A stretch of DNA of 64,000 bases from Candidatus Kuenenbacteria bacterium (GTDB taxonomy: Bacteria; Patescibacteriota; Patescibacteriia; UBA2196; GWA2-42-15). Below the pieces are notes generated by a model. It was not told the origin of the DNA, did not search any database, and saw nothing but the letters and a program-made list of their open reading frames with translations. Location: positions 1,241 to 65,240 of the forward strand of contig JAAZOM010000022.1 in the NCBI GenBank assembly GCA_012797775.1, in the 5' to 3' direction. Position 1 is the stretch's first letter, and every line of letters starts with the position of its first letter. The position numbers were made by a program, and so were the translations under genes. Shown piece after piece: positions 1 through 63,997 of this stretch.

Positions 1-1
1 A

Positions 2-622
2 CCATATATACAAGAAGCGGAGTTGGCGCGGCAAATCAAATCACGGCTTCAAACAATCTCGCTTTGCGACGAAATGACCGATTGGATGTTGGAGCGCGTA
101 AAAGAATGGGAATGCGAGGAGAATTCGTCGTCGCAAAGCGAGGTTCAAAATCTTTCCGAAAATATCAAAACGGCAGAAGCGAAAATGGAAAAGTTAGTTT
201 CCACTTATCTTGATGGCAACATTCCAAAACAGACTTATCTCAAAAAGAAAGATGAAATTTTGCTCGCTTCTGCCGTTTTGGAGCAAAAGAAGAAAGATTT
301 TGAAAGCAGGAGAAAAAATTGGGTCGAACCCCTGCGGGAGTGGATTTTAGATACGAAACAGGCCGATTTTTTGGCCAAGTCGGATAATTTCCACCAAATC
401 AAAACATTTGTTCAAAAAATCGGAACGAACCCTCGGGTTCGTAACAAATCCGCCGTCTTTGATTTTTGCCCAGCCAGCCATTTCGCCGCGAAGCGGGGAA
501 TCATTTTGCGGAGCGCGGCCGCCTCGCGGCCGCGCGGAGCAATGCTTTCAAACGCTGAAGTTTCTATTGGCGGAGAGGGAGGGATTCGAACCCTCGGACC
601 CCGTGAAGGGTCAACAACTTAG
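2..622 (+). CDS. C-terminal fragment of a large serine recombinase (integrase/resolvase family). It is 5'-truncated by the window edge, and the ORF reads antisense into the tRNA, so it may be a remnant or pseudogene.
   Basis: The reading frame is open from the first base. The peptide has the coiled-coil tail typical of large serine recombinases (..KMEKLVSTYLDGNIPKQTYLKKKDEILLASAVLEQKK..). The last ~55 nt overlap tRNA-Ser antisense. Confidence 0.35.
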   Translation, partial: PYIQEAELARQIKSRLQTISLCDEMTDWMLERVKEWECEENSSSQSEVQNLSENIKTAEAKMEKLVSTYLDGNIPKQTYLKKKDEILLASAVLEQKKKDFESRRKNWVEPLREWILDTKQADFLAKSDNFHQIKTFVQKIGTNPRVRNKSAVFDFCPASHFAAKRGIILRSAAASRPRGAMLSNAEVSIGGEGGIRTLGPREGSTT

Positions 623-657
623 CAGGTTGCTGCTTTCAGCCACTCAGCCACCTCTCC
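568..657 (-). tRNA. tRNA-Ser (anticodon GCT), 90 nt with a long variable arm and encoded CCA.
   Basis: Folded by hand: acceptor GGAGAGG/CCTCTCC, 3-bp D stem GCT/AGC, anticodon stem GCAAC/GTTGT with loop CTGCTAA, variable arm GACCC-TTCAC-GGGTC, T arm GAGGG-TTCGAAT-CCCTC, discriminator G, then CCA. Confidence 0.85.
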
Positions 658-700
658 ATGTTTAAAAATTAAGGTTATTTATTTTTTTGGTCAATTATCT

Positions 701-788
701 TCGGACCCCGTGAAGGGTCAACAACTTAGCAGGCGTGAACACGACCCTGGGCAGTGTTCACGGCTTTCAGTCACCGAGCCACCTCTCC
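701..788 (-). pseudogene. Truncated, interrupted second copy of tRNA-Ser(GCT). It keeps the acceptor 5' half, D arm, anticodon loop and variable arm, and lacks the T arm and 3' acceptor. The 5' half of the anticodon stem is replaced by a 29-nt hairpin.
   Basis: Near-identical to the intact tRNA from GGAGAGGTGGCT through GGGGTCCGA, and it diverges exactly there. It carries the inserted inverted repeat GTGAACAC-TGCCCAGGGTC-GTGTTCAC. Confidence 0.6.
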
Positions 789-998
789 ATGTTAAAACAT
801 ATTATAATGGGATAAGTATTAAGTATTATGTATTGTGGGGAGAAACTTGCTCCAGCCTCGCCCAGCTGTAGTATTCCCATAATACTTGATGCATTATACT
901 TAATACTATATTTAATTTTGGCCAAAAAGTCAAAGGTACTTTTGGCATTTTTTGCTATTTTATGATAAAATTAAAAAAGAATAATTAATTTTAAAAAT

Positions 999-1487
999 AT
1001 GACCGAGGATCAACAGAAAACAATGGAACCCCTTTCTTGGTCTTTCCCCGAGCATGAAAAGCATGAACGTAGCCGACGTTGGTATATTATCGCTGGCCTA
1101 ATTGCCGCTTTTTTGTTTGTCTATGCGCTTTTGACGAGTAATTGGCTATTCGCCCTCATTATTATTATGGTGATTATGGTTATGTTTATCAATCACCACA
1201 GTGAGCCACGGCCGATAGAATTTATTATCGACCATGAAGGTATAAAATTGGGGGAGAAACACTATAAGTACAAAGATATCAAAAATTTTTGGATTATTTA
1301 TGAACCGCCAACAGTCAAAAAGATCTTTTTTGTCTTTATGTCTAATACCAAGCCGATTTTGAGCATCCCGATCGGTGAAGAGAACCCCGTGGATATCCGC
1401 GCTTTCCTCCGACAATATTTAGAAGAAGATTTAGATCAAGAGGCCGAGCCCTTCTCTGAGGCCATGGGCCGGATTCTAAAAATTTAA
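999..1487 (+). CDS. Hypothetical membrane protein with two predicted TM helices.
   Basis: ORF with a hydrophobic N-terminal region; a terminator hairpin follows it. Confidence 0.45.
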   Translation: MTEDQQKTMEPLSWSFPEHEKHERSRRWYIIAGLIAAFLFVYALLTSNWLFALIIIMVIMVMFINHHSEPRPIEFIIDHEGIKLGEKHYKYKDIKNFWIIYEPPTVKKIFFVFMSNTKPILSIPIGEENPVDIRAFLRQYLEEDLDQEAEPFSEAMGRILKI

Positions 1488-1501
1488 ATTTTATTTTTCT
1501 T

Positions 1502-1528
1502 GGGCAAGGCACAAGCCTTGCCTTTTTG
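1502..1528 (+). terminator. Rho-independent terminator.
   Basis: GGCAAGGC-ACAA-GCCTTGCC followed by TTTTT. Confidence 0.55.
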
Positions 1529-1547
1529 ATTAATAGATTAATACCTT

Positions 1548-2222
1548 ATGACCTTTGAGCAGATTATAAATGAAATTAAAAAACACGCCAGCCGTAAAAA
1601 TGTTGAGGGTATGGCCCGCTTTGGTATCAATCCAAAAAATACACTTGGTGTTAGTATGCCTGTTTTGCGTTCACTGGCCAAAATTATTGGCAAGGACCAG
1701 AAATTATCAAAAGAGCTCTGGCAAGCCAAAATTCATGAAGCAAGAATTCTAGCTGCTCTTATCGGCGAGCCCCAGCTTGTTGGCGCCAGACAAATGGAAA
1801 GTTGGGTTAAAGATTTTGACTCCTGGGATGTTTGCGACCAGGTCTGCCTCAACCTTTTTGGCAAGACGCCCTTTGCTTGGCCCAAGGCTATTGAATGGAG
1901 CCAAAGGAGAGGAGAGTTTGTTAAACGCGCCGGCTTTGTCCTCATGGCTGTTTTGGCTGTTCATGATAAAAAAGCTGCTGACAAAGAATTTCTGAAATTT
2001 TTTCCCTATCTCAAAAAAGAGGCAATCGACAATCGCAATTTTGTCAAAAAAGCCGTCAATTGGGCCCTGCGTCAGATTGGCAAGAGGAGTCATTATTTAA
2101 GCATCAGGGTTATAAAATTATGCGAGGAAATCCAAAAAATAGATTCCCCAACTTCCAAATGGATAGCTGCTGATGCCTTGCGTGAACTGCGGGTAAAATC
2201 CTACAAATTAGCCAAAAAATAA
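1548..2222 (+). CDS. DNA alkylation repair enzyme (AlkC/AlkD-like HEAT-repeat DNA glycosylase family).
   Basis: Family-typical motifs WDVCDQVC, RAGFVLMAVLAVHDK and KKAVNWALRQIGKRS. Confidence 0.55.
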   Translation: MTFEQIINEIKKHASRKNVEGMARFGINPKNTLGVSMPVLRSLAKIIGKDQKLSKELWQAKIHEARILAALIGEPQLVGARQMESWVKDFDSWDVCDQVCLNLFGKTPFAWPKAIEWSQRRGEFVKRAGFVLMAVLAVHDKKAADKEFLKFFPYLKKEAIDNRNFVKKAVNWALRQIGKRSHYLSIRVIKLCEEIQKIDSPTSKWIAADALRELRVKSYKLAKK

Positions 2223-2249
2223 TTATAATAAGTTATTTGCCTGTCAAAG

Positions 2250-2277
2250 TTGACATATTTTCAAAACCTTGTATAAT
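2250..2277 (+). promoter_or_regulatory. Sigma70-like promoter: TTGACA, 16-nt spacer, then TGTATAAT. It would drive the infA-rpmJ-rpsM.. operon with a ~230 nt leader.
   Basis: TTGACA at 2250-2255 and TATAAT at 2272-2277, preceded by TG. Confidence 0.4.
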
Positions 2278-2504
2278 AAAAAGGTATATTAAAATAGTTA
2301 ATTTTAGGCATTTTATCAACATTAGTCTTATTTTTAATACTAATTAGTTGCCAAATGCGTTAGCGTAGCACTAGCTACCTAATTTTGTTTTACCCTTTAG
2401 GGCAAAACATCTTAAAAATTAAAATTTATCAAACAAGAGTGTTAAACCAAGATCAAAATACTGCCCCAAGCCAGCTTGGTGTCAACCGCAAAGGTTTTAT
2501 TGAG

Positions 2505-2696
2505 ATGGAAGGTGAAATAATAGAGCTTTTGCCAGCCGCCAGCTTCAAGATAAAATTGGATAATGGCCAAGAAATATTTGGCCACCTTTCCGGCAAGATG
2601 CGCATGAATAACATCATGCTTTTAACTGGCGATCGGGTCAAGGTAGAAGTTTCTCCTTATGACCTCGCCAAGGGCAGGATAGTTTACCGTTATTAA
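2505..2696 (+). CDS. infA: Translation initiation factor IF-1. Start uncertain: the ORF track opens at the TTG at 2385, and ATG 2505 gives a 63-aa product.
   Basis: [62 protein letters not shown] matches the IF-1 S1-fold consensus. Confidence 0.8.
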
Positions 2697-2708
2697 AATA
2701 ATTCAAAT

Positions 2709-2822
2709 ATGAAAGTTCGTGCTTCAGTAAAAAAAATCTGCCGTGATTGCCAGATTATACGACGCAAGAAGAGAGTGCGTGTTATCTGCAAAAACCCCAA
2801 GCATAAACAGAGGCAGGGATAA
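2709..2822 (+). CDS. rpmJ: 50S ribosomal protein L36.
   Basis: Manually translated: [37 protein letters not shown] (37 aa). It is absent from the ORF track because it is shorter than the cutoff. Confidence 0.85.
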
Positions 2823-2839
2823 TTTTTAAATATTTTTTT

Positions 2840-3229
2840 ATGGCTAGAATCGCTGGTGTAAATTTACCCAATGAAAAAAGGCTCGAGATTGGCTTGACCT
2901 ATATATTTGGAATTGGCCGCACGACCTCCAAAAAGATTATTGAGCGACTGGGGCTGGATCCCAATATGAAATGCAAAAATCTCTCCGAAGCAGAGTCCAA
3001 CCAACTCAAAAAAATTATTGAGGCAGATATTAGGACTGAGGGTGAGCTCAAGAGAGAAATTCTCTCGAATATCAAAAGACTAAAAGAAATAAATTGTTAT
3101 CGTGGAGTCAGGCACTCCAGAAGGTTGCCGGTTCGTGGTCAGCGCACCAAGACCAATTCTCGCACCGTCCGTGGCAATGTCCGTCATACCGCCGGATCTG
3201 GTAAAAAACCAGCCGCTCAAAAGACATAA
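2840..3229 (+). CDS. rpsM: 30S ribosomal protein S13.
   Basis: MARIAGVNLP...GLTYIFGIGR..RGVRH. Confidence 0.9.
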   Translation: MARIAGVNLPNEKRLEIGLTYIFGIGRTTSKKIIERLGLDPNMKCKNLSEAESNQLKKIIEADIRTEGELKREILSNIKRLKEINCYRGVRHSRRLPVRGQRTKTNSRTVRGNVRHTAGSGKKPAAQKT

Positions 3230-3253
3230 AATTATTTTATTTAATGTATAACT

Positions 3254-6034: not shown

Positions 6035-6478
6035 ATGGTTATCAAAAAAACAGACAAACCAGAAATCAAAAGAGAAACGGCCGCTACTGGCAAATATTAT
6101 TATGGACTTGGTCGCCGCAAGACCGCCATTGCCAAGGTTAAACTTTTTGAGAATGGTACCGGCAAGCTAGTTGTCAACGGCAAAGAATATAAATCTTTTT
6201 ACAGATATCCTCTTTATGCTGAAAATTTAGAACTGCCTTTCGAATCGGTTGGTTTGACGGGCAAAATAGATGCTGAGATAAAAGTCGTCGGCGGAGGCAT
6301 GAAAGCTAGTTCCGAAGCCTGCCGCTTGGGTATTGCCAGAGCTCTAATCAAAATGACTGAAAATTTCAAGCCCGCTCTCCGCGCTGCTGGCTATGTCACC
6401 CGCGATCCTAGAGCCAAAGAAAGAAAGAAGCCAGGCTTAAAAAGAGCCAGAAGAGCTCCCCAGTGGGCTAAGAGATAA
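6035..6478 (+). CDS. rpsI: 30S ribosomal protein S9.
   Basis: YYGLGRRKTAIAKV...C-terminal RRAPQWAKR. Confidence 0.9.
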   Translation: MVIKKTDKPEIKRETAATGKYYYGLGRRKTAIAKVKLFENGTGKLVVNGKEYKSFYRYPLYAENLELPFESVGLTGKIDAEIKVVGGGMKASSEACRLGIARALIKMTENFKPALRAAGYVTRDPRAKERKKPGLKRARRAPQWAKR

Positions 6479-9498: not shown

Positions 9499-9563
9499 CT
9501 TGTAACTCGCAAAAAGTAAAATTATCCCTTGTGCTAGTTACTAATTACGAGTTACTAGTTACC
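9494..9563. repeat. Dispersed palindromic repeat, copy A: AGTAACTTGTAACTCG, spacer, then CCTTGTGCTAGTTACTAATTACGAGTTACTAGTTACC.
   Basis: Shares about 35 of 37 nt with the copy at the window end (63956-63995). It overlaps the TAA stop of the upstream gene. Confidence 0.7.
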
Positions 9564-10215: not shown

Positions 10216-10422
10216 ATGAGAGAATTTTTCAAAAAACTGATCAATGCTCTATTCTATATTTCGCTCCTTATCTGGCTGGTTTATTTTGTGCTAGAATTAC
10301 TAAAAGAAGGGTTGGTTTCCAATTACTTTGATTTAAACTTATTATTACTCTCGGTGATTGTAATCGGAGTGATAAATATTATGATTAATTATAGCAGCAA
10401 CCATGATGATACGAGAGGCTGA
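10216..10422 (+). CDS. Small hypothetical membrane protein.
   Basis: 68-aa ORF with two hydrophobic helices. Confidence 0.3.
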   Translation: MREFFKKLINALFYISLLIWLVYFVLELLKEGLVSNYFDLNLLLLSVIVIGVINIMINYSSNHDDTRG

Positions 10423-47964: not shown

Positions 47965-50190
47965 ATGTTTGTATTCAAAAAGATAAAATTTTTATATTTA
48001 CTTGTGGTGATTAATTTTATTTCCATAAATTTTTTGCCTTATAACCCAGTTGGCGCCGCCGGTGTTTCATCGGTTGGGGAAGACTATCTTGGTAGTGAAA
48101 TGCTTTTAAAGTTAAAAAATAATGATTTTGTTTATGAGATTAAATTGCGAGACGAAACACCCCAAGAATTTATAAATAACAATATAAAAAATGATGCCGT
48201 TGATTTTATAGAGCCCAATTATATTTATCGCGCTTCTATTTTAGAGCCCAATGACCAGTATTATTCTCAGCAGGTTTACCTTTCTATTCTAAATACCCCC
48301 ATGGCCTGGGATTATACTACTGGCAGTGGTGATGTGGTGGTCGCCGTCATTGATAGTGGGGTTGATATAAAAAATCCCGATTTGGTCAATAATATCTGGC
48401 ACAACACAAAAGAAATTCCCAATAACGGCATTGATGATGACAGCAATGGTTTTGTTGATGACTATTCTGGCTGGGATTTTATTGAAGGCGTACCAGACCC
48501 CAGCCCAAAGTTTACGGGTAATTATACCTTTATGGGTATCAATCATGGTACGATTATTGCCGGGGTTATCGCCGCAGAAGGTAATAACAAAATCGGGATA
48601 ACTGGTCTTAGCTGGCACTCAAAGATAATGCCCCTTAGGGTTTTGAGCGGCGAGGGTACGGGTGATTCATATGATGTGGCTAGGGCTATTGATTATGCTC
48701 GCCTCAATGGAGCCAAAATTATAAACTTGAGCTTTATCGGAGATAAAAAATCAGAAACACTCAAGGAGGCCATCCGTCGGGCCTACCAATCTGGTATTTT
48801 ATTGGTAGCAGCGGCTGGCAATGAAGTCAATCAAGGTGAAGATCTGAAGGATAAACCGCTGTACCCAGTCTGTATGGACGGTGATAGCCCTGGCGACAAC
48901 TGGGTATTGGGTGTTGCCTCTTTGGATAACTATGATCACTTGGCTAGTTTTTCCAATTACGGTAGTTGTGTGGATATCACGACCCCGGGCGTTGGAATTT
49001 TTAGTACTCTAGTGAAAAACGATGCTCGTTTTGAATATCGCAATGAATACGGTGGGCTCTGGACAGGCACTTCCATGTCTGTACCCCAAGTCGCTGGTGC
49101 GGCGGCTTTGTTAAGATCCCTAAAGCCAGAATTGTCAGTTTTGGAGTTGCGCGATCTTCTTCTCAAAAATTCTGACAACATAGACCATCTCAACTCTAAA
49201 TATGCCGGCAGACTGGGTCGGGGCAAGTTAAATATCTTTAGGGTACTATCTGCTGCCAAAAACTCACTTAGCTCTATCGAATATCGTACAGACAAAATAA
49301 TTGTTGCCCCAGGTGTTGGTGGTGGACCCCAGATTAGAACTTATTATGAGGGCAAGCCCTATTCCCAATTTTTTGGGTTTGATAAAAATAAAAGATTTGG
49401 GGCCAATATCGCCAGTCGTGATTTGACCGGTGATGGGCAAGAAGAGTTGATCGTGTCCGCAGAAAAAGGGGAGGAGCCTTGGGTGCAGATTTTTGATATT
49501 AATGGCAATTATAAAGCAAAATTTTTGGCTTATGATAAAAATATGAAACAAGGCGTTAAGGCCAGTGCCGGTGATATAAACAATGACGGCCAAGAGGAAA
49601 TAATCACCGTACCACAGTCTGGTTACAAGCCCTTGGTAAAGATATTCAATCAAACTGGTAATCTCTTGGGTGAGTTTTATGCCTTTAATCAATTTTTTAG
49701 AGGTGGTTTAAGTATTAGTATAGGTGACGTAAACAACGATACTTTTGAAGAAATAGTTGTCGGCGCCGGGCCTGGTACGCAGAGCTTTGTAAAAATATTT
49801 AATTACCATGGTCAGCTTTCCGGTCAGTTTATTGCCTACAAGGAGAATTTCTTTGGTGGAGTCAATGTTGCTATTGGGGATGTCGACAGTGATAGCCAAA
49901 AAGAAATAATTTTAGCCCCCATGGGTAAAATGGCTCCCGAAGTTAAAATTTTTAATTTCCAAGGCCTTTTAAAATCTAGTTTTTTGGCTTATGACAAAAA
50001 ATTTATAAACGGTGTTAATGTCGCCGCCGGCGATATTAATAATGATGGTTATGATGAGATAATCACCGGCCCGGGCGCTGGCGGCGGTCCGCAGGTCAGG
50101 GTTTTTAATATCAAAGGTAAGGCGCTTATGCAGTTTATGGTTTTTAATGATAAATTTAAAGGTGGAGTAAAGGTTTCTTCAGGCAAATAA
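47965..50190 (+). CDS. Secreted S8 subtilisin-like serine protease with C-terminal FG-GAP-like repeats.
   Basis: Signal peptide. Catalytic Asp (VAVIDSGVD), His (HGTIIAGV) and Ser (GTSMSVPQVAGAAAL). Six or more copies of GD(I/V)NNDGxEEI. Confidence 0.75.
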   Translation: MFVFKKIKFLYLLVVINFISINFLPYNPVGAAGVSSVGEDYLGSEMLLKLKNNDFVYEIKLRDETPQEFINNNIKNDAVDFIEPNYIYRASILEPNDQYYSQQVYLSILNTPMAWDYTTGSGDVVVAVIDSGVDIKNPDLVNNIWHNTKEIPNNGIDDDSNGFVDDYSGWDFIEGVPDPSPKFTGNYTFMGINHGTIIAGVIAAEGNNKIGITGLSWHSKIMPLRVLSGEGTGDSYDVARAIDYARLNGAKIINLSFIGDKKSETLKEAIRRAYQSGILLVAAAGNEVNQGEDLKDKPLYPVCMDGDSPGDNWVLGVASLDNYDHLASFSNYGSCVDITTPGVGIFSTLVKNDARFEYRNEYGGLWTGTSMSVPQVAGAAALLRSLKPELSVLELRDLLLKNSDNIDHLNSKYAGRLGRGKLNIFRVLSAAKNSLSSIEYRTDKIIVAPGVGGGPQIRTYYEGKPYSQFFGFDKNKRFGANIASRDLTGDGQEELIVSAEKGEEPWVQIFDINGNYKAKFLAYDKNMKQGVKASAGDINNDGQEEIITVPQSGYKPLVKIFNQTGNLLGEFYAFNQFFRGGLSISIGDVNNDTFEEIVVGAGPGTQSFVKIFNYHGQLSGQFIAYKENFFGGVNVAIGDVDSDSQKEIILAPMGKMAPEVKIFNFQGLLKSSFLAYDKKFINGVNVAAGDINNDGYDEIITGPGAGGGPQVRVFNIKGKALMQFMVFNDKFKGGVKVSSGK

Positions 50191-58212: not shown

Positions 58213-59310
58213 ATGAAAATTTGCCTCATCAATAATCTCTACCCACCCTACAATCGCGGTGGCGCTGAGCGGGTAGTAGAAAACCAAGCCCAAGAATTTG
58301 TGACCGCTGGCCATGAGGTTTTTATTATTACCTCGAGGCCGATACAAGACCGCTCTCAAGCAGGCTCAGAAAAAATTAAAGTCTATCGCTTTTTTCCTCC
58401 CAATATCATTTCCTATTACCACCTGCAAAAATTACCCTTTCCGCTCCGCGCCCCGTGGCGTCTCTTTGACACTTTTAATTTTCACTCCTATTTTAAAATC
58501 AAAAAAATATTGCAAACAGAAAAGCCAGATATTGTCTATGCCCACAACCTAACAGGCCTTGGTCTTCTTATTCCGCGTTTAATTAAAAAATTGAAAATAA
58601 AATATACTCAAACCATGCATGATGTGGTCGGTATCCGCCCGAGCGGCCTTTTGCTTTATGGTCAGGAAAAAGAAAATATTTTTATCAAATTTTGGACCAG
58701 CTTGAATCGCTGGCTGTATAGCTCTCCAGACAAGGTTATCTTTCCGTCAGTATGGCTAAAAAAATATTATGAAGGGCATAAATTCTTCCCGCATGGCCCA
58801 AAAGAGGCTGCACAGAATTTCTACTTGCCATCAGCCAATCTATTGTTGAATAAGAAATTAAAATCCCCAGACAAAGTCACTTTTCTTTACATCGGTCAAA
58901 TCGAAAGCCACAAGGGCATTCTATTTTTAATCCAAACCCTAAACGAGTTACTAGTTACTAGTTATGAGTTACTCATTCTGGGTTCTGGCTCCCAGCTTGA
59001 ATCAGCCAAAGACCTAGCCAAAAGTAATTCACAGATCAAATTCCTCGGTTATCAGCCCAAAGAAAAGATTCAAGAATATTTAAAACAAGCCGACTACACC
59101 ATTGTCCCGTCTCTATGTTATGAGGCCTCACCTACTGTTATTTTTGAGAGCTTGGCTGTTGGTGTGCCTGTTATCGCTTCAAATCTCGGCGGCATCCCCG
59201 AATTAATCAGGGTAGGGGAGAAGGGTTATTTGTTTGAGCCGGGTAATAAAAAGCAGTTGTTAGAAATTATTGAAGATATTTATGCCACAAACCAAAATGC
59301 AAAAAATTAA
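58213..59310 (+). CDS. Glycosyltransferase family 4. It contains a dispersed-repeat-derived segment in-frame.
   Basis: N-terminal NRGGAERVV and C-terminal EASPTVIFESLAVGVPVIAS. Confidence 0.65.
   Translation: MKICLINNLYPPYNRGGAERVVENQAQEFVTAGHEVFIITSRPIQDRSQAGSEKIKVYRFFPPNIISYYHLQKLPFPLRAPWRLFDTFNFHSYFKIKKILQTEKPDIVYAHNLTGLGLLIPRLIKKLKIKYTQTMHDVVGIRPSGLLLYGQEKENIFIKFWTSLNRWLYSSPDKVIFPSVWLKKYYEGHKFFPHGPKEAAQNFYLPSANLLLNKKLKSPDKVTFLYIGQIESHKGILFLIQTLNELLVTSYELLILGSGSQLESAKDLAKSNSQIKFLGYQPKEKIQEYLKQADYTIVPSLCYEASPTVIFESLAVGVPVIASNLGGIPELIRVGEKGYLFEPGNKKQLLEIIEDIYATNQNAKN
58942..58976. repeat. Dispersed palindromic repeat, copy C, embedded in-frame in the GT4 CDS: ACGAGTTACTAGTTACTAGTTATGAGTTACTCAT, encoding ELLVTSYELL.
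   Basis: The same GTTACTAGTTAC units as copies A and D. Confidence 0.55.
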
Positions 59311-63887: not shown

Positions 63888-63997
63888 AGTAACTTGTAAC
63901 TAGTAACTCGTAATTAGTAAATGGTAGAATTTTTATTTTAAATAAAATAACAGTCCTTGTGCTAGTTACTAGTTACGAGTTACTAATTACTGCCTTG
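63888..63997. repeat. Dispersed palindromic repeat, copy D. It has left and right arms of GTAACT/AGTTAC-type units around a 27-nt AT-rich spacer and is truncated by the window end.
   Basis: The right arm CCTTGTGCTAGTTACTAGTTACGAGTTACTAATTAC matches copy A at about 35 of 37 nt. Confidence 0.7.

What the first reader, a model, noticed from the sequence alone, without database searches (positions are those of the whole stretch)
1..800. Integrative-element junction: serine-recombinase tail reading antisense into tRNA-Ser(GCT), followed by a truncated, interrupted second tRNA copy.
Seen directly: an intact 90-nt tRNA-Ser(GCT) at 568-657 on the minus strand. About 45 nt away, at 701-788, lies a second copy that matches it through acceptor 5' half, D arm, anticodon loop and variable arm, then stops exactly at the T-stem junction. 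In that copy the 5' half of the anticodon stem is replaced by a 29-nt palindrome (GTGAACAC..GTGTTCAC). On the other side of the intact tRNA, an open frame runs from the window edge. Its product has the coiled-coil tail characteristic of large serine recombinases, and the frame has no stop before entering the tRNA antisense. Duplicated tRNA segments are the classic footprint of site-specific integration into a tRNA gene. What is unusual here is that the duplicated part is the 5' two-thirds rather than the 3' part, and that the putative integrase is a serine rather than a tyrosine recombinase. The element body would lie to the left of the window.
Basis: partly seen in the sequence, partly recalled or inferred. 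Interest (0 to 1): 0.6.

Follow-up and report, generated by a model that had tools for sequence, protein, structure and literature searches.

The report
Serine-integrase element docked at tRNA-Ser
The window opens inside the last gene of a small mobile element whose large serine recombinase has inserted it into the 3' end of a tRNA-Ser gene, a target serine integrases are barely known to use; the half-tRNA next door is an unrelated relic of a kind common in these bacteria.

Summary
Homologues 83-88% identical carry Resolvase, Recombinase and Zn-ribbon domains, so the frame is a large serine recombinase (LSR) tail.

In 80 Patescibacteria loci, 65 of 70 relatives converge on a tRNA 3' end, mostly tRNA-Ser. 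Window 1-573 is 89-91% nt-identical to copies at other tRNA-Ser genes. Identity stops at 573|574 (TTGGCGG|AGAGG), which marks the element/host boundary.

In relatives the element is 3.3-9.6 kb with this layout:
- host flank, then a conserved arm X
- variable cargo
- inverted X plus an inverted 131-nt copy of the LSR 3' end
- the LSR gene
- the tRNA

Only GCGG is shared by all junctions. attP therefore lies inside the ORF, integration swaps the LSR C-terminal tail, and a second inverted attP persists.

The partial tRNA lies on the host side. It sits at the same position as a 5' fragment in a relative with no LSR at that tRNA's 3' end (that relative has a GIY-YIG gene there). It is not the att duplication.

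The parts
2..573 (+). Last 572 nt of the large serine recombinase gene. This is the right end of the mobile element (P side of the att site).
   Evidence: Frame 2 is open. Homologues at 83-88% identity carry PF07508 and PF13408. The full-length homologue in L007 has Resolvase, Recombinase and Zn_ribbon_recom domains. Nucleotide identity to L006-L012, L014, L016 and L017 is 89-91% and ends at 573 in copies followed by X instead of a tRNA.
443..573 (+). Segment corresponding to the right inverted repeat (IR-R) of relatives. It comprises the P arm plus codons for a low-confidence C-terminal region.
   Evidence: It aligns to L007 1664-1794. That stretch has a 100% identical inverted copy just upstream of the LSR start codon. 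51 of 57 loci with at least 1 kb upstream have such a copy, with median identity 99.25%. Residues 141-206 have pLDDT below 50. The left copy itself lies outside the window.
506..542 (.). GC-rich palindrome (17-nt arms, 3-nt centre) inside IR-R.
   Evidence: I11; -28.7 kcal/mol, z -3.1. It is conserved in the closest relatives but is only a 5-bp hairpin in L032. Its role is unknown.
570..573 (.). GCGG core, the complement of tRNA positions C71 C72 G73 C74. The inferred crossover lies within it.
   Evidence: It is the only sequence common to attL (B|X), the intact inverted attP (P|X) and attR (P|tRNA) in relatives. The core changes to GTGC or GTGA at Arg/Gly/Leu or Glu tRNAs. Identity between element copies stops here.
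574..622 (+). Read-through tail of the recombinase: 15 codons (EGGIRTLGPREGSTT) plus a stop, encoded antisense to the tRNA T arm and variable arm.
   Evidence: The same GGIRT-type tails occur in many homologues, while others end in the element-encoded tail ..ILxFARTFFE*.
568..657 (-). Intact tRNA-Ser(GCT), the host target gene (B' side). Its last 6 nt (CCGCCA) overlap the element end.
658..700 (-). 43-nt spacer between the two tRNA copies, with promoter-like hexamers for the intact tRNA.
   Evidence: TTGACC(721-716)-16-GATAAT(699-694) on the minus strand. A second candidate, TTGACC(694-689)-17-TAATTT(671-666), was read directly from the sequence.
701..788 (-). Non-functional 5' two-thirds copy of tRNA-Ser(GCT): acceptor 5' strand, D arm, anticodon loop and variable arm. 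It is a relic at the lineage's conserved tRNA position.
   Evidence: It aligns with the 5' fragment of L088 at the same distance from the conserved promoter block of the downstream 162-aa gene.
734..762 (.). 29-nt palindromic insertion replacing AGCAA in the relic.
   Evidence: The hairpin core ACCCTGGGCA resembles ACCCTAGGCA at the aligned position in L088 (tentative).

Best explanation
**Element junction.** Window 1-573 is the right-hand end of a small integrative element of Patescibacteria. The genome is annotated Candidatus Kuenenbacteria. The element is driven by a large serine recombinase.

- The recombinase gene runs to the very end of the element, and its attachment site lies inside its own reading frame.
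- Integration recombined the element's attP with the 3' end of the host tRNA-Ser(GCT) gene. attP consists of a P arm (the last codons of the gene), the core GCGG, and a P' arm called X here. The attB core is C71-C72-G73-C74 of the tRNA.
- The tRNA stays intact because the P arm supplies the discriminator base and CCA.
- The recombinase loses its native tail (..GG-D/E-ILxFARTFFE*, encoded by X). It now reads 15 codons antisense into the tRNA.

**Layout in relatives.** By homology with 50-odd relatives, the part left of the window should hold, in order:
- the other ~1.1 kb of the gene;
- an inverted, near-identical copy of window 443-573 directly upstream of the start codon, joined to X. This is an intact second attP in inverted orientation;
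- 1.5-8 kb of variable cargo;
- a second X in direct orientation, joined through GCGG to host DNA (attL).

This layout is what integration of a circle carrying two inverted attP copies would give.

**What is shown and what is inferred.** Shown: the anatomy in relatives and the boundary in the window. Inferred: the recombination chemistry, the circular form and any role of the second attP.

**Partial tRNA.** The copy at 701-788 is separate. It is a dead 5' remnant of the resident tRNA-Ser gene, left by an earlier event that placed a promoter and a fresh 5' part (or a whole gene copy) next to it. It later acquired, or came with, a hairpin insertion. In relatives the same spot holds such remnants together with a tiny GIY-YIG nuclease gene.
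For: **The ORF is a large serine recombinase.**
- Homologues carry PF07508 and PF13408.
- The 88%-identical full-length L007 protein has PF00239 (7e-23), PF07508 and PF13408, with a YARKST catalytic-Ser motif.
- It is distantly related to SprA, A118 Int, CcrB and XisF.
- The window fragment is modelled as a coiled coil.

**tRNA targeting is family-wide.**
- 174 relatives were found in species-representative genomes.
- 65 of 70 loci with downstream sequence have a convergent tRNA at the ORF end: Ser 48, Arg 5, Glu 5, Gly 3, Leu 2, Val 1, Ala 1.

**The boundary and recent mobility.**
- Copies in different Patescibacteria lineages, at tRNA-Ser GCT, CGA and TGA genes, are about 90% nt-identical.
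- Identity ends at ..TTGGCGG|.

**Anatomy in relatives.**
- The inverted repeat flanking the LSR is present in 51/57 loci. It is 126-231 nt long with median identity 99.25%.
- The X arm is conserved.
- A second, direct X (161-519 nt, 98-100% identical) lies 2.6-9 kb upstream in 21/26 loci.
- The common core is GCGG, GTGC or GTGA, matching the tRNA type.
- Cargo is variable and is neither phage-like nor conjugative: RM systems, Mrr, permeases, methyltransferases, surface proteins.
- The layout occurs in complete genomes (CP064994.1, CP060229.1, OY970382.1).

**Both tails exist.** ..FARTFFE* and ..GGIRT.. C-termini are both present among 120 homologues. One contig runs LSR-IR-X-cargo (L097).

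**The relic is independent of the LSR.**
Against: - Only the last 573 nt of the element are in the window. The catalytic domain, the left repeat, X, the cargo and attL are predicted from relatives, not seen here. No X motif occurs anywhere in the window.
- No empty attB, excised circle or inversion isomer was demonstrated from reads.
- The X-tailed proteins all sit on contigs of 3 kb or less. They could come from a different arrangement or from assembly paths through the 131-nt repeat.
- Six loci with long upstream sequence lack the inverted copy. Three loci (L013, L029, L049) end in non-tRNA sequence, and L011 has both attPs intact next to chromosomal-looking genes. The model does not explain these.
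- attP x attP or attP x attR reactions are not expected of canonical serine integrases (own knowledge). The purpose of the second attP is therefore open.
- The half-site symmetry is only partial.
- For the relic, the window has no GIY-YIG gene. Its break point (T-stem junction) differs from those of the GIY-YIG cassettes (positions 13-37).
Confidence: 0.75

Rival explanations
1. The 5' two-thirds tRNA copy is the att-site duplication made when the serine-recombinase element integrated. The element would be bounded by tRNA-Ser fragments.
For: The copy lies 43 nt from the targeted tRNA, with a perfect 33-nt repeat. tRNA fragments are the classic island signature (PMC4383910).
Against: - The element boundary is at 573|574. 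The copy lies beyond the whole intact tRNA, on the host side.
- Relatives' attL shares only 4-10 nt with the tRNA.
- L087 has the LSR end without an obvious copy. L088 has a copy and no LSR sequence at the tRNA 3' end.
- Fragments are equally common at tRNAs with no LSR.
Confidence: 0.04
2. The recombinase with its flanking inverted repeats is not a mobile element end. It is a resident invertible switch: a DNA invertase that flips its own 1.4-kb gene segment next to a tRNA promoter. Flipping would toggle its C-terminus or expression.
For: - Near-perfect 131-nt inverted repeats bracket the gene in 51/57 loci.
- Both C-terminal tails are found in databases.
- Contigs often break at the repeats.
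Against: - Copies are about 90% identical across distant hosts and at different tRNA genes, with a sharp boundary.
- Direct and inverted X copies bracket variable cargo, with a B|X junction.
- Several copies occur per genome at different tRNAs (L067/L075).
- No assembled locus has the flipped state with the tRNA upstream of the gene.
- Inversion could still occur in addition to mobility.
Confidence: 0.1
3. The partial tRNA arose by a simple local tandem duplication of the tRNA 5' part. Decay, gene conversion and a hairpin insertion followed. No mobile element was involved.
For: - The two units are head to tail with 107-nt spacing.
- Similarity extends 12 nt upstream of both 5' ends.
- A perfect 33-nt block next to a diverged D loop fits gene conversion.
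Against: - Apart from those 12 nt, the 43-nt spacer is unlike the sequence upstream of the relic.
- The orthologous position in L088 and L086 carries remnants associated with a GIY-YIG gene.
- Cassettes of fragment, GC hairpins, GIY-YIG ORF and intact tRNA recur at many tRNAs.
Confidence: 0.3
4. The tandem tRNA arrangement and palindrome are an assembly artefact at a repeat.
For: Related contigs start inside this region (L001 at window 646, L002-L005 at 741).
Against: The same partial copy with the palindrome and the start of the intact tRNA occurs in an independent ENA assembly with one SNP. The Logan contigs agree from 741 onward.
Confidence: 0.03

Closest known systems
Large serine recombinases / serine integrases of phages and ICEs (phiC31, Bxb1, A118/LI Int, SPbeta SprA, CcrAB, XisF)
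   Same: - Same domain order in the full-length homologue: Resolvase, Recombinase, Zn ribbon with a coiled-coil insertion.
- Detectable sequence similarity to SprA, A118 Int, CcrB and XisF.
- Junctions share only a few bases.
   Different: - The target is the 3' end of a tRNA gene, and the gene is preserved. Known serine-integrase elements usually insert inside protein genes and disrupt them (PMC5704250).
- attP lies inside the recombinase ORF.
- The element keeps a second, inverted attP.
- No recombination directionality factor is evident in the smallest cargos.
S-Int genomic islands at t(m)RNA genes predicted by TIGER (Mageeney et al. 2020, PMC7192596)
   Same: These are computational cases of serine integrases using tRNA genes.
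   Different: That study found only 14 of 297 and stated that such use 'has not been reported previously' and needs experimental proof. Here a whole clade (174 relatives; 65/70 at tRNAs) is dedicated to tRNA 3' ends. I could not check whether any of the 14 belong to this clade.
Integrases whose gene spans attP: Myxococcus phage Mx8 IntP and SSV-type 'suicidal' archaeal integrases
   Same: The attachment site lies inside the integrase reading frame, and the target is a tRNA gene. Integration therefore alters (Mx8) or splits (SSV) the integrase (PMC4383910 citing Tojo 1996; PMC7253208). Here the last ~15 residues are exchanged.
   Different: Those are tyrosine recombinases with long identity segments. 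This one is a serine recombinase with a 4-nt core. It also retains an intact inverted copy of the native 3' end.
Tycheposons and other tRNA-targeting cargo islands of streamlined genomes
   Same: They are small cargo-carrying elements at tRNA genes in bacteria with reduced genomes, with variable niche or defence cargo (bioRxiv 10.1101/2020.12.28.424599).
   Different: - Tycheposons use tyrosine recombinases in 910 of 937 cases.
- They leave partial tRNAs at both ends.
- They often carry replication genes. None of these features holds here.
Yeast 2-micron plasmid (FLP/FRT inside 599-bp inverted repeats)
   Same: The reconstructed free form would be a circle of two unique segments separated by 300-650-bp inverted repeats, each containing a recombinase site. 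This is inferred. The 2-micron anatomy is own knowledge.
   Different: The recombinase family differs. No replication origin or circle has been seen here. Flip-flop is unproven, and attP x attP recombination is not expected of serine integrases.

Membership tests
Large serine recombinase (serine integrase) | N-terminal resolvase catalytic domain with the nucleophilic serine | not testable with these tools
   This part of the gene lies left of the window. It is met in the 88%-identical full-length homologue L007 (PF00239, E 7e-23; YARKST motif).
Large serine recombinase (serine integrase) | Recombinase domain and zinc-ribbon domain C-terminal to the catalytic domain | tested here: met
   Homologues that align over the whole window fragment carry PF07508 and PF13408 immediately upstream. 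The window itself begins just after the zinc ribbon.
Large serine recombinase (serine integrase) | Antiparallel coiled-coil motif inserted in the zinc-ribbon domain | tested here: met
   The AlphaFold model has helices 23-70 and 76-103 with the turn at YLDGNIP, and pLDDT 91-95 over residues 50-90. The fold search returned only generic coiled coils.
Large serine recombinase (serine integrase) | att sites share only a short crossover core, so no long direct repeats flank the element | tested here: met
   attL, the intact attP and attR of 18 relatives share GCGG, GTGC or GTGA and little else.
Large serine recombinase (serine integrase) | attP and attB half-sites with dyad symmetry and shifted zinc-ribbon motifs | tested here: inconclusive
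   The P and P' arms share about 13 of 19 positions. CGAACC sits 6 nt farther from the core in X than in the tRNA T arm. This rests on inspection only. No binding data exist.
Classical tRNA-gene genomic island (Islander signature) | Tyrosine integrase | tested here: not met
   The recombinase belongs to the serine family.
Classical tRNA-gene genomic island (Islander signature) | A displaced tRNA fragment marks the far end of the island | tested here: not met
   The far junction in relatives carries 4-10 nt of identity only. The window's partial tRNA lies outside the element.
Classical tRNA-gene genomic island (Islander signature) | The target tRNA gene is restored by element sequence | tested here: met
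   The tRNA is intact, with its last 6 nt inside the element's repeat.
Serine DNA invertase / invertible segment | Recombinase sites in inverted orientation bracketing a segment | tested here: met
   Inverted repeats of 131 nt bracket the gene in 51/57 relatives. This cannot be seen in the window.
Serine DNA invertase / invertible segment | Both orientations of the segment present in a population | tested here: inconclusive
   Both C-terminal tails exist in databases, but no locus shows the flipped state at a tRNA. Reads were not available.
GIY-YIG mini-cassette at the 5' part of a tRNA gene (candidate origin of the relic) | A 5' tRNA fragment followed directly by GC-rich hairpin(s) | tested here: met
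   In the window, tRNA positions 1-26 are followed by the 29-nt hairpin. The same pattern occurs in L031, L055, L006 and L088.
GIY-YIG mini-cassette at the 5' part of a tRNA gene (candidate origin of the relic) | A GIY-YIG ORF between the fragment and the intact tRNA | tested here: not met
   Only 43 nt separate the copies in the window. The ORF is present at the orthologous place in L088 and L086.

The most novel reading that the evidence does not exclude
Patescibacteria harbour a large, undescribed class of minimal mobile elements, with these features:
- a serine integrase dedicated to tRNA 3' ends;
- an attP embedded in the integrase's own coding sequence, so the enzyme's tail changes on integration;
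- a free form carrying two inverted attP copies, an architecture like the 2-micron plasmid that allows either-way integration or flip-flop.

These 3-10 kb elements would shuttle restriction-modification, transporter and surface genes between distant CPR lineages. They may be a main route of gene exchange in these bacteria.
Probability: 0.4. Interest if true: 0.8.

Novelty: new variant of a known kind. Interest (0 to 1): 0.6.

Why it matters
- **Target choice.** Reference works on genomic islands state that serine integrases are not known to use tRNA genes. They treat the few predicted cases as needing proof. A whole clade that does so, with precise junctions in more than 60 genomes, would change that picture.
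- **Natural experiments.** The clade gives dozens of attP/attB pairs whose core co-varies with the tRNA type. This is useful for understanding, and perhaps re-targeting, serine integrases.
- **Gene exchange in Patescibacteria.** It also names a concrete vehicle for horizontal transfer in a phylum where islands have been counted but their mechanism was left open.
- **Annotation.** Half-tRNAs beside tRNA genes in this phylum should not be read as att sites without checking.

Tried and rejected
- Pfam on the window fragment alone gave nothing significant. The family came from homologues.
- The Rfam scan of 1-3000 found no family for the partial copy or the palindrome. A scan around the structured tRNA-like element of L033 also found none.
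- Foldseek of the model against the PDB returned only generic coiled coils.
- I searched for the free element in IMG/VR by attP pattern and by protein. There were no matches, so there is no sign of a phage link.
- The palindrome is not a repeat family. It has one copy in the window and none in 84 other loci.
- I considered that the element carries its own tRNA and inserted into the old one. I rejected this because identity between element copies stops before the tRNA.
- I considered that the GC palindrome at 506-542 is the recombination site. I rejected this because its sequence and length are not conserved across the family.
- I could not extend the window leftward. Contigs carrying the neighbouring gene start at 646 or 741.
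- Literature searches for this element type in Patescibacteria found nothing. The library is incomplete, so absence is weak evidence.
Full report
**1. The observation**

The window begins in an open frame (frame 2, bases 2-622) that stops at 620-622. ARAGORN and Rfam place an intact tRNA-Ser(GCT) at 568-657 on the minus strand. The frame therefore runs 53 nt into the tRNA on the opposite strand.

A second copy lies 43 nt upstream of the tRNA in tRNA sense, at 701-788. It has the acceptor 5' strand, the D arm, the anticodon loop and the variable arm.
- It is 33/33 identical over 701-733 = 594-626.
- It is 87% identical over 38 nt at 763-800 = 632-669, which includes 12 nt upstream of the 5' end.
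- It ends 2-3 nt into the T stem.
- AGCAA of the anticodon stem is replaced by a 29-nt palindrome at 734-762. The palindrome is unique in the window and absent from shuffles, and it folds as a hairpin.
- An independent ENA assembly has the same arrangement with one SNP.

**2. The open frame is a large serine recombinase**

- The fragment alone hits no Pfam family.
- 150 database proteins match it. The best are 83-88% identical, and the longer ones carry Recombinase and Zn_ribbon_recom domains just upstream.
- A full-length homologue (L007, 563 aa) has Resolvase (7e-23), Recombinase and Zn ribbon domains.
- That homologue is distantly similar to SPbeta SprA, A118 integrase, CcrB and XisF.
- A model of the window fragment shows the long antiparallel coiled coil (helices 23-70 and 76-103, pLDDT 91-95 over residues 50-90). 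The last ~65 residues are of low confidence.
- Ribosomal proteins of the window are annotated Candidatus Kuenenbacteria.

**3. The association with a tRNA 3' end defines the family**

A scan of one genome per species found 174 relatives. The 80 fetched are nearly all Patescibacteria MAGs. Of the 70 with downstream sequence, 65 have a convergent tRNA at the end of the frame, usually overlapping by 22-50 nt. The counts are Ser 48 (all four anticodons), Arg 5, Glu 5, Gly 3, Leu 2, Val 1 and Ala 1. The many homologue C-termini of the type ..GGEGGIRT.. are antisense translations of the T arm.

**4. The boundary of the element**

- Window 1-573 is 89-91% nt-identical to L006-L012, L014, L016 and L017. 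These come from differently named lineages (Roizman-, Staskawicz-, Falkow- and Brennerbacteria) and sit at tRNA-Ser GCT, CGA or TGA genes.
- The alignment is about 97% identical over the last 190 nt. It collapses immediately after ..TTGGCGG, at window 573.
- Copies followed by something other than a tRNA align exactly to 573.

So 573|574 is the element/host junction. The intact tRNA is the host target, not cargo. The element has moved recently between distant hosts.

**5. Anatomy seen in relatives (not visible in the window)**

(a) *Inverted repeat around the gene.* The last ~131 nt of the gene reappear as an inverted copy that ends at the gene's own start codon.
- It is present in 51 of 57 loci with at least 1 kb upstream.
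- 43 copies are complete (126-231 nt), with median identity 99.25%.
- About 1412 nt lie between the arms.

(b) *The X arm.* Outside that left copy lies a conserved sequence, X (TGAnATnnTnnCCTTTGCGCGAACC..). Read in frame after the repeat, it encodes ..ILxFARTFFE*. This is the alternative C-terminus carried by at least 17 of 120 homologues.

(c) *A second X.* A second X in direct orientation lies 2.6-9 kb further left in 21 of 26 loci.
- It is 161-519 nt long and 98-100% identical to the inverted X.
- It is joined to unrelated DNA through the same 4-nt core.

(d) *The core.* The core is GCGG at tRNA-Ser, GTGC at Arg/Gly/Leu and GTGA at Glu. It is the only sequence common to the three junctions.

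(e) *Cargo.* Between the two X copies lies variable cargo:
- restriction-modification systems and Mrr;
- an AbiEii-like ATPase;
- xanthine/uracil permeases;
- methyltransferases;
- a GTP-cyclohydrolase fusion;
- beta-helix/PKD surface proteins.

No phage, replication or conjugation genes were found.

Total length is 3.3-9.6 kb. The layout occurs in complete genomes (CP064994.1, CP060229.1 with two copies, OY970382.1).

**6. Mechanism**

The order is B|X - cargo - X(inverted)|IR(inverted) - LSR - IR|tRNA. This is what results if a circle with two inverted copies of attP (each = IR + core + X) integrates through the copy at the 3' end of the gene into the tRNA 3' end.
- X resembles the T-arm side of the target. 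CGAACC lies 20 nt from the core in X and 14 nt from it in the tRNA. The P and P' arms share about 13 of 19 positions.
- This is reminiscent of the attP/attB half-site logic of serine integrases (own knowledge; not tested).
- The anatomy and boundaries are shown. The circle, the chemistry and the function of the second attP are inferred.

The second attP might allow integration in either orientation. It might allow restoration of the native tail by inversion across the 131-nt repeats. It might allow 2-micron-like flip-flop. None of these is demonstrated.

Several loci do not fit:
- six lack the inverted copy;
- L013, L029 and L049 have non-tRNA right junctions;
- L011 has both attPs intact;
- in four loci the gene abuts a displaced tRNA 3' fragment.

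**7. The partial tRNA**

It lies on the host side of the junction, beyond the whole intact tRNA. I compared relatives of the adjacent 162-aa gene.
- L087 (71% aa identity) has an intact tRNA-Ser(GCT) at the corresponding place. The end of the LSR repeat lies at its 3' end, and no obvious partial copy is present.
- L088 (65%) has a 5' fragment (GGAGAGGTGGCTGA plus hairpins). It aligns with the window's copy at the same distance from the conserved promoter block. A GIY-YIG gene and an intact tRNA follow, and no LSR sequence is found in the 167 nt beyond the tRNA 3' end.
- L086 (71%) has a pseudo-tRNA riddled with three small palindromes, next to a GIY-YIG gene.

Across all loci, partial copies within 600 nt are as frequent at tRNAs without an LSR (24/85) as at LSR-linked ones (16/70). 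A recurrent cassette consists of a 13-36-nt 5' fragment, GC hairpins, a 78-87-aa GIY-YIG ORF and an intact tRNA. It occurs at Cys, Glu, Ser and Val genes.

The window's copy is therefore a relic of an older, LSR-independent event.
- One candidate is a decayed cassette of that kind.
- The other is an old local duplication.
- I cannot decide between them. There is no ORF here, and the break point differs.

The relic may now contribute a -35 box (TTGACC 721-716) to a promoter-like site for the intact tRNA.

**8. Comparison with what is known**

- Mageeney et al. 2020 found 14 of 297 S-Int islands at t(m)RNA genes. They called this unreported and in need of proof.
- The IME review says serine-recombinase IMEs disrupt their target genes.
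- Tycheposons are a functional analogue built on tyrosine recombinases.
- A survey of horizontal transfer in Patescibacteria includes the genome of L039 but mentions neither recombinases nor tRNAs.
- I found no description of this element type. The library is incomplete, and the window shows only its last 573 nt.

I rate it a new variant of a known kind.

**9. Verdict**

- Interest is 0.6.

Noticed in passing
L031 1886-2193, 4077-4423, 9807-10152, 10982-11319; L055 17695-18032; L006 1651-2138; L088 262-612; L086 1-290: Tiny cassettes sit in the 5' part of tRNA genes (Cys, Glu, Ser, Val). Each has a 13-36-nt copy of the tRNA 5' end, 60-70 nt of GC-rich hairpins, a 78-87-aa GIY-YIG ORF and then the intact tRNA. 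They look like a gene-restoring homing-endonuclease element.
   Followed up: partly
L033 1812-1928; L035 1503-1610; L010 5778-5896; also L028, L041, L051: Upstream of LSR-linked tRNA-Ser genes, an 18-nt copy of the tRNA 5' end starts a ~100-nt element. The element folds into a multi-branch structure closed by pairing of that copy with a complementary 3' stretch (z -4 to -8). No Rfam family matches.
   Followed up: partly
L007 250-271 vs 1561-1582; L032 9027-9050 vs 10335-10358; L013 8814-9044: The left inverted repeat continues with a 22-24-nt inverted copy of the EWILDTKQ codons. Compared with the right copy it lacks an 80-nt stretch. L013 has the undeleted 231-nt version.
   Followed up: no
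window 807-909: A long AT-rich imperfect hairpin lies between the tRNA relic and the promoter block of the 162-aa gene (plus strand -37 kcal/mol, z -4.6). Only a chance-level Rfam miRNA hit was found.
   Followed up: partly
window 9527-9562, 58937-58972, 63955-63990 and inverted 63896-63929: Dispersed 34-36-nt repeats built of GTTACTA-like heptamers. Two copies form an inverted pair at the right edge of the window.
   Followed up: no
window 49489-49609 and 49948-50068: A 121-nt direct repeat at 71% identity, 459 nt apart.
   Followed up: no
L019, L045 (6175-6226 vs tRNA 6344-6429), L057, L080: In four loci the recombinase abuts a displaced tRNA 3' fragment, and the intact tRNA lies 48-136 nt further on. 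This suggests a later insertion between them.
   Followed up: no
L013 10574->, L029 10573->, L049 10571->, L011 1-1900: Some elements end in non-tRNA or degenerate X-like sequence. L011 has both attP copies intact, followed by ABC-transporter, RadC, SpoU and sigma-factor genes. It may be a free or differently integrated form.
   Followed up: partly
L089, L090, L091, L093 versus window, L087, L088, L095: More distant relatives have tRNA-Ser(GCT) and tRNA-Ser(TGA) on the same strand as the 162-aa gene, with tRNA-Arg(GCG) after it. In the window's lineage tRNA-Ser(GCT) is on the opposite strand and the others are gone. The whole 64-kb window holds a single tRNA.
   Followed up: no
L078 1197-1447 vs 2991-3241: A 252-nt inverted copy (86.5%) of the recombinase 3' region lies downstream. 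It may be a second, opposed element.
   Followed up: no
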